DNA from: Octopus vulgaris
Taxonomy: Eukaryota
Length of the DNA stretch: 64,000 bases
Assembly: GCA_951406725.2 (NCBI GenBank)
Contig: OX597816.1
Location: 45,260,001 to 45,324,000 of the forward strand
Direction: 5' to 3'
Shown here: in pieces, positions 32,483 through 54,119 of the stretch
How the letters are laid out: every line of letters starts with the position of its first letter
Numbering within the stretch: position 1 is the stretch's first letter
Notes under the pieces: generated by a model
The model's input: only the letters and a program-made list of their open reading frames with translations
The model's database searches: none
Told to the model about the DNA's origin: nothing
Translations under genes and position numbers: made by a program

Positions 32483-33400
<918 letters not shown>

Positions 33401-36275: not shown

Positions 36276-36388
36276 AAAACCCTGATGAGGTTCTAACCTA
36301 TATAGCTGAAAATGATACCATTTCTTAGAATATAGCCAAATACAGAGAATTATGTAGGGGCATGAACTGAAACATATATGTAGGTTTT
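36276..36388 (+). ncRNA. Type I hammerhead ribozyme motif with 80-nt helix II domain
   Basis: aaaacc-CTGATGA-ggttc..cctatata...tatgtagg..gaact-GAAA-c atatat g-TA-ggtttt. Complete core, GUA triplet. Confidence 0.8.
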
Positions 36389-38564: not shown

Positions 38565-39733
38565 TAGCTTCAGCTCATGAGCTGTGACCATGCTGGGGCA
38601 CTGCCATTTGGTGTTGCTACATAATTTTACTTCACGAATGCTTTTTAGGAATTGACATTTGGTGCATGAGGGAGCTTGATGCCGTTGCCCTCACCCTGCC
38701 GCAAAGTTGGTTCATCTAGGACACTTGACAGTAAGAGTCCAGCTTTATTTTGAAGATACATATATCCACCCCATGCAGGTCTCTCAGGTCCTTCGGGAGG
38801 ATACTGAAGAGCTGTAGACTTCTGAAGCCCAGGCTATTGCAGTATCTTGTCCTACATCTTGATGGCAAATTTGGAGTCCTTGCCACTATTCAGTGGCACC
38901 CAATTCTATTATTTGTGTAACTCTCAATGCCTAAGTTTGGGACAAGTCCTTCCAGGATCTTCCAGGAATATATTATGGTATATCTTTCTCGCCTATGCTC
39001 TAAGGAGTAGAGTCTTAATGTCTTGAGTCTTATATGCTGCATAGAGGCTATCTTCTTCATGTAGCTTCGTTGGATTGCCTCAAGTCCTGAGATTAATTTG
39101 ACACTTGTTGGTGACCATAGCTAAGAGTAATAGTCCAAGTGGCTTAGGACAAGTGTCCCCCAGAGGACCATCATGGTTTCCTGCTCTCTTGTTCTAAAAG
39201 TTCTAAGAATCCACCCAGCCAGCAGCCTGCATTTCATTGCCAATTTAGCAACATGCCCATGGAAGGATGCCTTATTACTCATGGAATGCCCAGGTCTCAC
39301 AATGACTGTGCCCTCCAGGTCCAGTGTATTTAATTGGTATGGCATTTAGTTTTGCATGCTGACAGCACAAGGCTGGAGACTTAAACTGGAGACTTAAACT
39401 GCATGCTATTCTTTTCAGCCCACTTGTATATTTCATCCAGCTCACATTGCAGGTGCATAGTGTCATCAGGGTTCTGTATTACCTGTGAGACTTTTGTATC
39501 ATCTGCATAACTTGTGAACATGACTCTCTGTGTGGCTGAGGGCATGTCTAAGAGTGCCATTATGAACAGTAGTGGTCCCAAAATAGTGCTTTGTGGAACA
39601 CTGCTTGCTATTTGTGTGTCATTGGATGTGGCCCCATTGGCTACTACCACCTGATGTCTATCCTTCAGAAAGTCATGAAGCTGTTCTCCCAATTTTCCGA
39701 CTATGTCAAGGCCACGCAGTTTGTGACATATCA
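38565..39733 (-). mobile_element. CR1/L2-group LINE, 5'-truncated and decayed RT
   Basis: SSVPQSTILGPLLFI, SYADDTK, LAGWILRTFRTRE, LVLSHLDYYS. Frameshifted. Confidence 0.85.
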
Positions 39734-39956
39734 TTCCAAATTAATGAAGCAAATGCCATTTAACTCCCCTTGATCTCTGATGTCATTTGACAAACACTAT
39801 CCAAGATGGCATGCATCCATCAAGCTTTATTTGCTAAAAATAGCAACCCAAATGCTTTTAAATCAGATCCAAATACTAGATGCTGAAGAACCTAATGAAG
39901 GGTAGATTTTCAGTCCCAGGATCATTCTGATTCCAAAAGGGTATAATATGCCTATG

Positions 39957-48859: not shown

Positions 48860-49331
48860 TGGTAATGGCAGTCAATTTTCCAGTCAAACCAAGGCAACCA
48901 TTTTCACCATTGGTTTTCAAATTGTTGATTTACTCAGTGTTGTTAGTCACATCTCCTGACGGAGTCATCGGAGCTTCATTTTTTTTTTTCTTTAGTTTTC
49001 TTTTTCTTTTTTTTTTTTTTTTTTTTTAGCTTTTACTGTTATTTTTGTTTTATTGGTGACAGTGTGGAATTTGAACTCTGAATGCAGAGAGGTGGAACAA
49101 ATACTGCAACGCATCCTGTCTAACATTGTAAAAGTTCCACAAGCCTCACTTTCTGGGACCAGCACATGGGTTTAAAAAATAACAAAAACACAATAAAATT
49201 TTAGTTTTGAATAATCTCAACCATTGTCAAAACAGTCTAGCAAAGTTTCAGGAACGGAGCAAAACATTTCTGTGATCTAAGCCTGGAACAAACAGATTAA
49301 CCAGCGCTTTTAAATTACTAATCCTGATTGA

Positions 49332-50083
49332 CTGATGATGACGATGATGATGATGATCATCATCATCATAATCATCACAACCTATCCCATCACCACCAGC
49401 AACAACAATGCTATCATAATCATTGCTATCATTGTCATCGATGTCACCATTGTCATCATCATCATCATTGCCATGTTGTCATCATCATCATCGTTTTCAT
49501 CATTGTCATCGTCATCATCATCATTGTTGTTGTCTTCATCACTGACATCATCATCATCAGTCATCATCATCATTGTTGTCATCATCATCATTGCCATCAT
49601 CATCATCATTGTCATCATCATCATTATTGTCATCATCATTGTTGTTGTTTTCAACATTGCCATTATCATCATCATCATCATCATCATTGTCGTTGTCATT
49701 GCTATCATCACTGTTGTTGTCTTCATCATTGCCATCGTCATCATCATCGTCATCGTCATTGTCATCATTGTAATCGTCATTGTCATCATTGCCATCATCA
49801 TTGTCATTATCATCATCATCATTGTCGTTGTCATTGCTATCATCACTGTTGTTGTCTTCATCATTGCCATCGTCATCATCATCGTCATCGTCATCATTGT
49901 AATCGTCATTGTCATCATTGCCATCATCATTGTCATTATCATCATCATTGCCATTGTTATCCTCATTTTCATCATTGTCAACATTGTCATCATCCTTGCC
50001 ATCATCATCATCATTGCCATTGTTGTCATCATTGCCATTATCATCATCATCATCATCATCATTGTCGTCGTCATCATCATCAT
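49332..50083. repeat. Complex (CAT/CGT/TGT)n microsatellite with a ~135-bp higher-order duplication
   Basis: gctatcatcactgttgttgtcttc recurs at 49701 and 49836. Confidence 0.9.
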
Positions 50084-50605
50084 TTTGTTTATGCTTGCTT
50101 TCTCCATGCTGGCATAGTTTCGATGAGTCTCTACAAGGCAGTGTTCTACAGCCAGATGACATTCCTGATTTCTGACACCAACCCTTCTTTGTTCTTCACG
50201 TAAGGTATTTTATTTCTCATCTTTGCATGCTGAAGACTATTTGTTTATACAGGATATAAACAAAAACATCATTGACAATCCACAGATAGCTTAGACTGAA
50301 GAAACACAAGCATGTCAAAAAATCTTAAAGTCCCCCTTACATCACTGAATCAGCTGAAGGGAAAAGTTGATGTCCGAAGGCAAAACACTATAGTGATTTG
50401 CATATTCACATTCAGAGTTCAAATTGGCCAGAACCTGTTAAGAACGAATATAGTTGTCATTGTTTTGATTCTCATTTTTTTACATGTTTCTGAGAATTTA
50501 TCAACTTAGCAAACATCAGTACATATCAGCAAATAATTTGGTTGCTAAATTCTATAAACAAGAACAGTCTTTCTTGTTTGGCTTTAATGATCGCATGGAT
50601 GGGTA

Positions 50606-50654
50606 GCTTTTACTGAAGAGACACAATAAGTTTGAAACACTGGTGTAACAAAGT
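50606..50654 (+). ncRNA. Hammerhead-like motif in a ~317-bp diverged tandem unit
   Basis: gctttta-CTGAAGA-gacacaataagttt-GAAAC-actggt-GTA-acaaag. Core and helix III intact, helices I and II eroded. A more decayed sister lies at 50296. Confidence 0.55.
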
Positions 50655-50802
50655 CCTCCTACATCACTGAATCTCTTGTGTTGTCAACACACATTGTATG
50701 AATGAAGTTGTTCTCCAAAGGTGAACTACAACAGCAATTAGCATATCTAAGTTCAAATCTGCTGGAACATATTACAAATGAATATTCTCTTCATATATAT
50801 AA

Positions 50803-51310
50803 GTTCAAATAGAAAAATAGAATGTGCTTTCTGTGGCTAAAGAATCTATGACTTCTTTCTAGCAATGCTGGTACTCCCTGCGCCTTTGGTCACTTTTAGC
50901 GACTGTGAATGATTTTCTTTTTGGTTTTAAATCGTGTGTAGCCACCTTAATTATTTTATAATTTTCACATTACCATTTTGCAGAATCAGCCACTGATTTC
51001 GACGATAAGTTCTATAATAGTGACAGGTGAAAATTCAGCTTCACCACTTGCAATGGAGAAAGCATTACTGATGAGTATTAATTTCAATATGAAATTAGCG
51101 TGGTAATCTAATGCACCTCACTTGCAGTGGGGAGGTTGTCTCCCCTGTCAGTTCAAATAGACCATGTTCTTTCTGTGGCTAAAGAGTCTGACTTTTATTT
51201 CTAGCAATGCTGGTGCTCCCGGCACTCTTGGTCACTTTTGGTGACCGTGAATTATTTCCTTTTTGGTTTTAAATTGTGTCTAACCACCTTAATTATTTTA
51301 TTTATATATA
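50803..51310 (+). mobile_element. Retrozyme- or pseudo-LTR-like element: ~150-bp direct repeats (348-bp period) around a hammerhead rod
   Basis: gttcaaatag...ctttctgtggctaaaga...ccaccttaattattttat occurs at 50803 and 51151, in a TA-repeat context. Confidence 0.7.
51062..51114 (+). ncRNA. Type I hammerhead ribozyme motif
   Basis: gcatta-CTGATGA-gtatt aatttc aatat-GAAA-tta gcgtgg taa-TC-taatgc. 6/5/4-bp helices, AUC triplet, helix I extends to a rod spanning 51021-51150. Confidence 0.85.
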
Positions 51311-51312
51311 TA

Positions 51313-52577
51313 CAGGGGTCGGACAAAATAATGGAAACACCTAGCGTGATAGCATCATAATTTTGAAATATCTATAAAACCGTCAAAAGCTTGTTTATTT
51401 TTATGTTTTTTGATTTATTAATAGTGTTGCTTAATATGTCTTTCAAAAATTGCTGTTTCTTTTCAGATATTACCAGAAAAAAGTAATTAAAATTCATTAA
51501 AATGACAGGTCTATTGGACTGTCAAAGAGGTCAAATTGTTGGTGCTTGTATGGCAGATGCAAGCGTAATGAAAACAGCCAAAATGTTTGGTGTATCAAGA
51601 AGTACTCTCTCAAAAGTAATGACAGCCTTTGAGAAAGAAGGAAAAACCTCCTCGTTGAAAGAAAACTCTGGAAGAAAACCAAAACTTTCAGATAGGGACC
51701 ATCAGATTCTTATGTGAATTGTTAGAAAGGATCACAAAAGTACAACTCCCAAAATTACTGCAAAGCTTAATGACCACTTTGAGAACCCAGTTTCCACAAG
51801 AACTGTTCACCAGGAGCTGTACAAAGCCTGATTCCACAGGAGAGCTGCAATTAGAAAATCACTACTTTCAAAAACAAACGCTGCAAAGCATTTAGAGTGG
51901 AGTAAAACCTGCAGAATTGTTCCCTATAGCAGTGGAAAAATGTTATTTTCTTGGACAAGTCATCCTTTACCTTATTTCCAACCACCAGTCAAGTATATGT
52001 GTGGAGACAGCCAAAAGACGCTTTTGATCCAGACTGCCTTCTTCCAAGTGTTAAACATGGAGGAGTATCTGTGATGATCTGAGGGGGCTATATCTTGGAA
52101 ATTTGCCAGCCTAATGGTTTCCCTTCATGGCAGAATTAATAGTCAAGACTATTTAAGTGTTTTATCTGATCAAATTCATCCTATGTTTGCAGAACTGTTT
52201 CTGGGGAGAAAAGCAATCTTTCAGGATGATAATGCACCAATTCACACAGCTAAAGTTGTATTGAATGGCACGAGGAACATTCTAGTGAAGTTGAACATTT
52301 TATTTGGCCACCACAGTCCCCAGATCTCAATATTATTGAACATTTATGGTGCACTTTAGAAAAACAAGTAAGGAGTTAATATCCTCCGCCATCATCACTA
52401 CAAGAACTGGAGACTGTTTTAGCTGAAGAATGGACAAAAATTCCTTTGGAAACAATTCAGACTTTGTATGAGTCCATACCTCACAAGCTGTAATTACAGC
52501 CAAAGGCAGTCCTACCCCATATTAAAATAAATTTGTTTGAAATTTTAAGGTATTTCCATTATTTTGTCCAACCCCTG
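51313..52577 (+). mobile_element. Full-length Tc1-family transposon (DD36E type) with a decayed transposase at 51502-52525
   Basis: TA TSDs, 30-bp TIRs caggggtcggacaaaataatggaaacacct / aggtatttccattattttgtccaacccctg, 1265 bp. HTH N-terminus, GRKPKL, VIFLDKSSF, FQDDNAPIH, WPPQSPDLNIIEHLW. Stops and frameshifts present. Confidence 0.92.
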
Positions 52578-52867: not shown

Positions 52868-53626
52868 GGCTTCTTTCAGTTTCTATCTACAAACCCACTG
52901 ACAAAGCTTTAATTGGCCCAAGGCCATGCAAGCTTCTTACTACACAACCATAAGAATTTAGAACTTCGAGACGCATTAAATGATTTGTCTTTTTTAATTG
53001 CAGAACTTGAAGTAGATAAAGCTATAGATAATAGTATGTAATTATTGGCTTAAAAACCATTTGGATAGAAAAGGTCAAAGTGCAAAAGGGAGAGGCAAAC
53101 AGTCAGATAATCCTATGTATGCAACTGAAGAAGTATTAAATTTAAATAGCCCTCTATGAATCATACTTAATGTATATACATGGTTAACAAATTACTGAAG
53201 TTTGTGTCCGAGAGAGCTTGGAGTATGTTTAAGGGAAATTTGGTAGCTATTTCTAGTACTAATTTGTTTAGCATCAGGTTTGTATAGTTATTGTTGTATA
53301 GACATAGCTCAGGTCTGACTGAAGACACTTATGATCATGGGCATTCCAGTTATGACATTCACATCAGGCAACTTGGGATCACATCATACATGCTTTTTTT
53401 TAAGATAATGGAGTACGTTTAAGAGAAATTTGGTAGCTATTTCTAGTATCAGCTTGCTTAGTGTTAGGTTGTTGTTATTGCTGTTGTATAGACACAGCTT
53501 AGGTCTGACTGAAGAAACCTATGATCAAAGGGGATTTAACCATGACCATCCAGTATCTTTTTTAAGATGGAAGAGTGTGATTTTGAGTTATAATGGAGTT
53601 TTTATTTCTAGCAGGTTAATTAGAAA

Positions 53627-54119
53627 CCTGTAATGACATGCATAAGATCTGGTCATCAAATCTAAGTAGAGACTTCAAACTTGAAATATTCAAAGCCACA
53701 GTCGAACCAATTCTACTATATGGTTCAGAAACCTGGACGTTATCAAAGAAGCTTGAGAGGCGGTTGGATGGAACCTACACTCGCCTCCTTATGAGAGCTC
53801 AAAATCTCTCATGGAAGCGCCATCCAACCAAAATGCAAATATATGGGAAACTACCACCTGTGTCATCTCTTGTGAAAGGTAGGAGAGTCCAGTTTGCTGG
53901 ACATTGTTGTAGAGCTGAAAAAGAAGTAATTTCTACTCTTCTCCTCTGGAAGCCATCTACTCGCAATACCAGAGGGCGCACACTCTCCTACCCTGATGTA
54001 ATCTCCAGGGATACAGACATCCAGCAACAGGACCTCCGTAATGCCATGATGGACCGTGAAGTCTGGCGTAGCATGGTAAATTCCATTGTCTCGACCACGG
54101 TCGAACAATGATGATGATG
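53627..54119 (+). mobile_element. RTE-clade LINE, 5'-truncated 3' end with an uninterrupted ORF
   Basis: PILLYGSETWTL, RRVQFAGHCCR, DREVWR. The stop runs into a (TGA)n tail. Possible agaaa TSD. Confidence 0.85.

What the first reader, a model, noticed from the sequence alone, without database searches (positions are those of the whole stretch)
50803..51310. Retrozyme-like unit: complete hammerhead at the tip of a 130-nt rod between 348-bp-period direct repeats
Seen: the HHR at 51062-51114 has a perfect core and an AUC site (predicted cut after 51108). Helix I continues past a small internal loop through gag/ctc, tgcaa/ttgca, ccac/gtgg, cagcttc/gaggttg and tgacagg/cctgtca (51021-51150). About 150 bp is duplicated at 50803 and 51151, giving roughly 1.45 monomers with no ORF. 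Established: animal non-LTR retrozymes are tandem monomers of a few hundred nt with one type I HHR each. Inference: this is a partial-tandem insertion copied from a ~348-nt circular or multimeric RNA.
Basis: partly seen in the sequence, partly recalled or inferred. Interest (0 to 1): 0.8.

Follow-up and report, generated by a model that had tools for sequence, protein, structure and literature searches.

The report
Decayed hammerhead retrozyme-like repeat copy
This is an aged, one-and-a-half-unit copy of a multi-copy ~345-base repeat that carries a hammerhead self-cutting RNA motif at the tip of a long hairpin; it is likely an animal retrozyme (a mini-retrotransposon moved by Penelope-like elements) in what is likely an octopus genome, and this particular copy is predicted to misfold.

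Summary
A type I hammerhead (51062-51114, AUC site, cut predicted after 51108) is the only descriptor hit in the window, with 0 hits in 300 shuffled windows. It caps a rod that extends to about 50981-51190 (z -4.3). Positions 50802-50959 recur at 51150-51301 (88% identity, period 342-348), with no ORF and (TA)n on both sides. Contigs from three organism labels show many diverged relatives carrying both unit junctions. So this is a circularly permuted, multi-copy, ~345-bp non-coding unit, not a single copy and not a local Penelope ORF end. Corrections: the copy is decayed (G·U at 10.1-11.1 where most relatives have G-C; helix III altered), and its catalytic fold is predicted 10.7 kcal/mol above a blocked hairpin. 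No array with two hammerheads, no expression and no cleavage were shown. Best reading: an old partial-tandem insertion of an animal non-LTR retrozyme, a known kind of non-autonomous Penelope derivative (PMC7229834; bioRxiv 10.64898/2026.07.22.740005). It would be a new member, in a probably octopus host (recalled, not shown), next to a second decayed hammerhead tandem. Modest interest.

The parts
50802..51301 (+). Whole insertion, about 1.45 units of a ~345-bp non-coding repeat
   Evidence: nothing of the unit beyond the Tc1 or elsewhere in the window
50802..50959 (+). Segment copy A (5' partial unit)
   Evidence: 132 of 150 ungapped columns identical to copy B
51150..51301 (+). Segment copy B; the insertion ends 193 nt downstream of the predicted cut
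51062..51114 (+). Type I hammerhead: helix I 51062-67/51109-14, CUGAUGA 51068-74, helix II 51075-79/51086-90, GAAA 51091-94, helix III 51094-97/51104-07, AUC site with cut predicted after 51108
   Evidence: most relatives have C at 51090 and A at 51100
51079..51097 (+). Predicted 8-bp hairpin (loop 2 pairing with GAAA and the 5' strand of helix III) that blocks the catalytic fold in this copy
51021..51150 (+).
   Evidence: z -4.97; pairs listed
50981..51190 (+). Full predicted rod, including pairing with the start of copy B
   Evidence: z -4.28
50794..50801 (.). (TA)4 left flank
   Evidence: sequence
51303..51312 (.). (TA)5 right flank, interrupted by a Tc1; more (TA)n from 52578
   Evidence: sequence
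51313..52577 (+). Decayed Tc1/mariner DNA transposon in the right (TA)n; unrelated insertion
   Evidence: 44-nt inverted arms including TA; broken transposase frames (Tc1 label recalled from the motifs)
50218..50794 (+). Adjacent decayed tandem of a second, separate hammerhead-type family (about 1.8 units, CUGAAGA cores at 50296 and 50613, 317 apart)
   Evidence: unit 1 vs unit 2 score 100 vs shuffles 28.7±4.9, 0 of 200; vs the finding's unit 41 of 200 shuffles as good; multi-copy with go-back joints

Best explanation
This is an aged 1.45-unit genomic copy of a multi-copy, ORF-less ~345-bp repeat with one type I hammerhead per unit, likely an animal non-LTR retrozyme that was probably pasted into a (TA)n run by the enzyme of a Penelope-like element. 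Shown: the hammerhead elements, the predicted rod, the duplication, the (TA)n flanks, multi-copy relatives with both junctions, and decay of this copy. Inferred steps: (1) tandem or partial-tandem source loci are transcribed on the + strand; (2) hammerheads one unit apart cut at the AUC site and release ~345-nt monomers with 5'-OH and cyclic-phosphate ends; (3) a host RtcB-type ligase would circularise them, as shown in vitro for mussel and axolotl (PMC7229834); (4) a Penelope RT/GIY-YIG protein nicks AT-rich DNA and starts reverse transcription internally, here about 190 nt downstream of the cut. Internal initiation at AT-rich nicks was shown for an anole Penelope (PMC11167929). Copying past one full round of a circle or multimer would give 1.45 units. 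(5) The two copies of the segment then decayed independently. With a single hammerhead and a predicted blocked fold, this locus would not by itself release a circle.
For: Descriptor hit unique, 0 in 300 shuffles. Rod z -4.97 and -4.28. Circular fold of 50960-51302 z -3.23, 0 of 100 shuffles, 65% paired, GC 38%. laid 4 of the 24 listed runs on 50110-51325: 735, 579 and 914 contigs in the three DNA runs, most under 90% alike. 19, 22 and 27 contigs carry the majority letter at 51059, just 5' of helix I. Of 32 listed pieces, 6 diverged ones bridge the segment-to-hammerhead junction (50959/60) and 13 bridge the rod-to-segment junction (51150/51) by at least 31 letters on each side. One piece (X1 record 2, 50897-51269, 68 differences) bridges both and exceeds one period. 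Relatives mostly carry the canonical C11.1 (summed depth 598 of 1105, 73 of 113, 1430 of 1745) and A at 51100 (1037 of 1118, 111 of 111, 1390 of 1599). No GIY-YIG hit in 86 of 100 long ORFs scanned. (TA)n targets and partial tandems are Penelope traits (PMC8557442, passages). Xenopus retrozymes are pLTR-related (bioRxiv 10.64898/2026.07.22.740005).
Against: No listed contig holds two hammerheads, so tandem arrays of this family are not shown; an element with 150-bp terminal repeats would give the same two junctions. This copy's catalytic fold is -35.6 kcal/mol against an MFE of -46.3, with pair probabilities of about 0 for helices II and III. The other phase (50803-51150) folds no better than shuffles (z -1.2 linear; -1.26 circular). 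Rfam gave no hammerhead hit. 29-49% of contigs laid in the DNA runs run on into unlike sequence of unknown content, so some relatives may join a Penelope ORF. No partner Penelope was identified. A target-site duplication cannot be told from the microsatellite. 8 of 9 predicted Xenopus retrozyme dimers did not cleave in vitro (bioRxiv 10.64898/2026.07.22.740005).
Confidence: 0.72

Rival explanations
1. Remnant pseudo-LTR region of an autonomous Penelope-like element, or a short non-autonomous Penelope derivative with 150-bp terminal repeats that never forms arrays or circles.
For: Partial tandem in (TA)n with a 3' end downstream of the hammerhead fits Penelope insertions (PMC8557442, PMC11167929). 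Penelope-like elements make up 6.83% of the O. vulgaris genome (PMC13282606 supplement). No two-hammerhead contig was seen, and 29-49% of laid contigs run on unlike. Retrozymes and pLTRs form a continuum (bioRxiv 10.64898/2026.07.22.740005).
Against: Both junctions recur at other loci, so the 345-bp closure is a family trait, not two chance truncations. No Penelope ORF was found at the locus. The hammerhead is canonical (6-bp helix I, 4-bp helix III, no extra base between positions 9 and 10.1), unlike the minimal motifs of most metazoan pLTRs (PMC4209133).
Confidence: 0.17
2. A hammerhead-bearing satellite unit, born once from a pLTR and spread by DNA-level duplication or unequal crossover, with no RNA circle intermediate.
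For: This model of local amplification is discussed in bioRxiv 10.64898/2026.07.22.740005. Copies A and B differ at 18 of 150 columns, which could predate insertion. No RNA evidence here.
Against: Relatives run into unlike flanks, and the locus is a lone 1.45-mer bounded by (TA)n. A long rod with canonical core letters in relatives suggests selection at the RNA level (inference).
Confidence: 0.07
3. An endogenised viroid-like circular RNA that replicates RNA-to-RNA and was reverse-transcribed by accident.
For: Size about 345 nt, a ~210-nt rod, and a hammerhead predicted to be blocked in the monomer, as in viroids.
Against: No hammerhead on the minus strand and no other ribozyme family at E<=10. 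Many genomic relatives in three organism labels. No match in viral or metagenome contigs with four exact patterns.
Confidence: 0.03
4. Chance resemblance in AT-rich DNA.
For: Rfam models miss it; the isolated 53-nt motif folds only at z -1.7 and not as a hammerhead.
Against: 0 descriptor hits in 300 shuffled windows; relatives are closer to the canonical motif than this copy.
Confidence: 0.01

Closest known systems
Animal non-LTR retrozymes, closest the Mytilus galloprovincialis family (PMC7229834; results and discussion read, parts 2-4 of 6; supplement unreadable)
   Same: One type I hammerhead per short AT-rich non-coding unit; unit size (345 vs 350-390 bp); multi-copy; self-paired predicted RNA; some mussel circles also do not fold the free hammerhead.
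   Different: Here there is a single decayed 1.45-mer; arrays, cleavage and circles are not shown. The hammerhead caps a ~210-nt rod, and helix III has 4 pairs with a near-palindromic strand. Sequence homology to the mussel units was not tested.
Retrozyme monomer derivatives of Penelope pLTRs in vertebrates (bioRxiv 10.64898/2026.07.22.740005; parts 1-3 of 5 read, supplements closed)
   Same: Dispersed monomer-type copy of a hammerhead repeat family; unit length within their 51-972 bp range.
   Different: Fails their 'active' criterion (two consecutive units with complete hammerheads) at this locus; no partner pLTR was identified; their 35 genomes include no mollusc.
Penelope-like element pseudo-LTR hammerheads (PMC4209133, parts 1-2 of 4 and supplement passages; PMC11167929, parts 1-2 of 4; PMC8557442, passages)
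   Same: Partial-tandem layout, AT-rich/(TA)n target, 3' end downstream of the hammerhead, palindrome-like helix III.
   Different: No RT/GIY-YIG ORF; the period is 345 bp rather than kilobases; the hammerhead is canonical rather than minimal.

Membership tests
Animal non-LTR retrozyme | Type I hammerhead in the unit | tested here: met
   Rfam models did not hit
Animal non-LTR retrozyme | Short unit (150-450 bp), GC below 50% | tested here: met
   period 342-348 bp, GC 37-38%
Animal non-LTR retrozyme | No protein-coding frame | tested here: met
   longest stop-to-stop frame wholly inside is 51 aa
Animal non-LTR retrozyme | Multi-copy family in the genome | tested here: met
   19, 22 and 27 diverged contigs at 51059 in three DNA runs; both junctions recur
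Animal non-LTR retrozyme | Family forms tandem arrays with two or more hammerheads | tested here: inconclusive
   This locus has one hammerhead (1.45 units). One other contig exceeds one period, and go-back joints of 340-343 occur, but none of the 32 listed pieces holds two hammerheads; 2480 pieces not shown.
Animal non-LTR retrozyme | Stable self-paired monomer circle | tested here: inconclusive
   circular z -3.23 for 50960-51302 but -1.26 for 50803-51150
Animal non-LTR retrozyme | Self-cleavage and circular RNA in vivo | not testable with these tools
   Only contigs were available; this copy's catalytic fold is predicted disfavoured.
Animal non-LTR retrozyme | Target-site duplication longer than 4 bp when present | tested here: inconclusive
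   (TA)n on both sides cannot be told from a duplication
Animal non-LTR retrozyme | No PBS or PPT | not tested
   not examined
Penelope-like element pseudo-LTR | Flanks an RT plus GIY-YIG ORF | tested here: not met
   No GIY-YIG hit in 86 of 100 ORFs of 90 aa or more (14 microsatellite frames dropped). One sub-threshold RVT_1 hit lies 11 kb away. Badly broken ORFs would be missed; relatives' flanks were not readable.
Penelope-like element pseudo-LTR | Partial tandem in an AT-rich target | tested here: met
Penelope-like element pseudo-LTR | Minimal hammerhead (little or no helix III, extra base between 9 and 10.1) | tested here: not met
   4-pair helix III, no extra base (definition from PMC4209133)
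Viroid-like circular RNA | Ribozyme in both polarities | tested here: not met
   no minus-strand hammerhead, no ribozyme family at E<=10; limited sensitivity

The most novel reading that the evidence does not exclude
A still-active cephalopod retrozyme family whose ~345-nt circle carries a built-in switch. Loop 2 pairs with the GAAA core to lock the monomer as a viroid-like rod, while a long near-palindromic helix III lets multimeric transcripts cleave as double hammerheads. That would be self-pairing control of the kind PMC7229834 says most animal retrozymes lack, and a long double-stranded RNA in animals known (recalled) for heavy A-to-I editing.
Probability: 0.1. Interest if true: 0.6.

Novelty: new member of a known kind. 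Interest (0 to 1): 0.27.

Why it matters
If confirmed, it extends animal retrozymes to a further lineage (probably cephalopods) and gives a tidy example of Penelope-type insertion geometry: a partial tandem in (TA)n whose 3' end is not the ribozyme cut site. Searches for octopus + hammerhead ribozyme, cephalopod + Penelope + ribozyme and octopus + retrozyme listed no paper describing such a family. The 2026 O. vulgaris repeat annotation has no occurrence of hammerhead, ribozyme or retrozyme in its text or held supplement. The supplement of PMC7229834 could not be read and may list one. The class and its likely mechanism are already described, so the gain is incremental unless the blocked-monomer switch proves to be family-wide.

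Tried and rejected
No whole genome is held, so the genome-wide search for arrays was impossible. Rfam: 0 hits at gathering score in 64 kb; 18 chance-level hits and no ribozyme at E<=10 in 50000-51400. Exact-pattern scans of viral contigs and metagenome contigs: 0 loci, so no relatives could be aligned and no covariation test was run. No RNA holder listed: no evidence either way. One run guessed to be RNA (X23) gave 11 short pieces, none 95% or more alike, one reading into a diverged hammerhead; RNA status is a guess, so it is not used as evidence of expression. Summed depths are not used as copy numbers. Loose ends at 51301 (17 contigs in X11, agreement 0.47) do not show a shared 3' end. Host taxon: a protein search with the RT-related fragment at 53620-54108 gave no informative names, and a text search with a short SINE motif found 0 papers; 'octopus' rests on recalled SINE and microsatellite character. 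Homology between the finding's unit and the upstream tandem was rejected (41 of 200 shuffles as good; unit 2 alone 9 of 200). The idea that the Tc1 cut a longer array was rejected: no unit sequence lies beyond it. Four look-ups of earlier scan findings returned nothing.

Full report
Observation. The hammerhead is present as described. Helix I (51062-67/51109-14) has 6 Watson-Crick pairs, CUGAUGA lies at 51068-74, helix II has 5 pairs beginning with G·U, GAAA lies at 51091-94, helix III has 4 Watson-Crick pairs, and the AUC triplet puts the predicted cut after 51108. A type I descriptor finds only this site on either strand of the window at four stringencies, and none in 300 shuffled windows at the two stricter ones. 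Rfam does not find it, so the call rests on the descriptor and on relatives. Positions 50802-50959 recur at 51150-51301 with 132 of 150 ungapped columns identical, 11 transitions, 7 transversions and 10 gap columns. The period is 348 at the 5' end and 342 at the 3' end. No frame wholly inside exceeds 51 codons.

Surroundings. The window is repeat-rich animal DNA. Its SINEs and microsatellites look like Octopus from recall; two attempts to confirm this gave nothing. The 500-bp element has (TA)4 on the left and (TA)n on the right. A decayed Tc1 (51313-52577) sits in the right-hand run, and nothing of the unit lies beyond it. Directly upstream, 50218-50794 is a decayed tandem of a different family, with CUGAAGA cores 317 bp apart (unit 1 vs unit 2: 0 of 200 shuffles as good; vs the finding's unit: 41 of 200). 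Of 100 ORFs of at least 90 aa, 86 were scanned against Pfam (14 microsatellite frames dropped). There was no GIY-YIG hit, one sub-threshold RVT_1 hit 11 kb away, and two C2H2 zinc-finger fragments. A fragment at 53620-54108 has RT-bearing relatives and looks LINE-type from recall.

Relatives. No genome is held. Twenty listed runs under five organism labels hold words of the element, none on record as RNA. Four of the 24 listed runs were laid on 50110-51325 at 80% likeness: 735, 579 and 914 contigs in the three DNA runs, most under 90% alike, across both families. The locus itself is recovered with 0 differences in X1 (50110-50968 and 50962-51146) and with 3 differences in X7 (50110-50968, bridging the left junction), so the insertion occurs under at least two labels. 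At 51059, 19, 22 and 27 contigs carry the majority letter; this is a lower bound on distinct relatives, not a copy number. Of the 32 pieces listed (2480 not shown), 6 diverged ones bridge the segment-to-hammerhead junction and 13 bridge the rod-to-segment junction by 31 or more letters on each side. One (X1 record 2, 50897-51269, 68 differences) bridges both and is longer than one period. Go-back joints of 340-343 occur in all three DNA runs. The ~345-bp closure is therefore a family trait. No listed piece contains two hammerheads, so true arrays are not shown, and 29-49% of laid contigs run on into sequence I could not read.

State of this copy. Relatives mostly have C at 51090 (summed depth 598 of 1105, 73 of 113, 1430 of 1745), giving the conserved G10.1-C11.1 pair, and A at 51100 (1037 of 1118, 111 of 111, 1390 of 1599), which brings helix III towards a 14-nt palindrome (228 further rows not shown). 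The change at 51090 is a CpG-type transition. Both segment copies carry private differences from the majority (9 and 8 positions among the rows shown), consistent with independent decay. Eighteen differences in 150 give a Jukes-Cantor distance of 0.13 (my arithmetic), or 0.065 per copy. This would be about 18 million years on the O. vulgaris clock of PMC13282606 (passage), if the host is an octopus and the copies began identical. In the energy model the catalytic fold is -35.6 kcal/mol against an MFE of -46.3, and helices II and III have pair probability about 0, because loop 2 pairs with GAAA and the start of helix III in an 8-bp hairpin (51079-51097). Such models ignore tertiary contacts. 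Whether this block is family-wide or private could not be read.

Mechanism. The best reading (0.72) is an old partial-tandem insertion of an animal non-LTR retrozyme. Inferred from the literature and not shown here: multimeric transcripts self-cleave to monomers, which an RtcB-type ligase circularises (PMC7229834). A Penelope protein then nicks AT-rich DNA and starts reverse transcription inside the RNA, downstream of the hammerhead (PMC11167929), and more-than-unit copying yields a partial tandem (proposed in PMC4209133). The anatomy fits: the insertion ends 193 nt past the cut rather than at it, begins 42 nt past the equivalent cut, and lies in (TA)n. Against it: arrays, circles and cleavage are unshown; one of the two circular phases folds no better than shuffles (z -1.26 vs -3.23); and in the anole Penelope, hammerhead cleavage was not needed for insertion in vitro (PMC11167929). 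Rivals are a pLTR remnant or terminal-repeat derivative (0.17), a DNA-amplified satellite (0.07), an endogenised viroid-like RNA (0.03; no minus-strand ribozyme) and chance (0.01).

Comparison and novelty. It works like an animal retrozyme and meets the tested features of hammerhead type, unit size, GC, lack of ORF and copy multiplicity. The defining feature of multi-hammerhead arrays is inconclusive, so it is filed as retrozyme-like, probably a monomer-type copy. It fails two tests for an ordinary Penelope pseudo-LTR (no linked ORF, non-minimal hammerhead). Retrozymes of 350-390 bp are known from mussel (PMC7229834), and their derivation from Penelope pLTRs is argued in bioRxiv 10.64898/2026.07.22.740005. 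Three literature searches and the O. vulgaris repeat paper with its held supplement showed no cephalopod family. The PMC7229834 supplement could not be read, one PMC4209133 file was not searched, and the preprint's supplements are closed. Also seen as passages only: PMC7761336 and PMC8967140. Verdict: a real feature, a new member of a known kind, interest 0.27. The boldest reading not excluded is an active family with a self-blocking monomer and dimer-activated cleavage (probability 0.1).

Noticed in passing
window 50218-50794 (+): Second, separate decayed hammerhead-type tandem (cores at 50296 and 50613, 317 bp apart). It is multi-copy in three DNA runs, with go-back joints (50785 to 50498; 50774 to 50456; 50694 to 50365). 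Relatives mostly have C at 50647, giving a GUC site, with a short self-complementary helix III. It ends at the same (TA)n in which the finding's element starts, and both families carry the word AGTTCAAAT.
   Followed up: partly
window 53219-53560 (+): Direct repeat of period 190 (80% over 91 nt), each copy followed by CUGAAGA (53319, 53509); no recognisable GAAA or helix III. Possibly a third, badly decayed hammerhead tandem.
   Followed up: no
window 36282-36330 (+): CUGAUGA, 4-pair helix II, GAAA and a near-palindromic 3-pair helix III, but no helix I; possible lone decayed hammerhead.
   Followed up: partly
window 51313-52577: Near-full-length but broken Tc1/mariner element inserted in the (TA)n at the right end of the retrozyme-like copy; three mobile elements share this TA-rich spot.
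   Followed up: partly
window 32486-33216 (-): Two frames with C2H2 zinc-finger hits (E 4e-14 and 1e-12), in pieces; a zinc-finger gene fragment or pseudogene.
   Followed up: no
window 53620-54110 (+) and 39384-39740 (-): Reverse-transcriptase-related fragments; the first ends in a short (GAT)n tail and looks LINE-type from recall.
   Followed up: partly
window 49330-50090: About 760 bp of degenerate (ATC)n repeat giving long open low-complexity frames on both strands.
   Followed up: no
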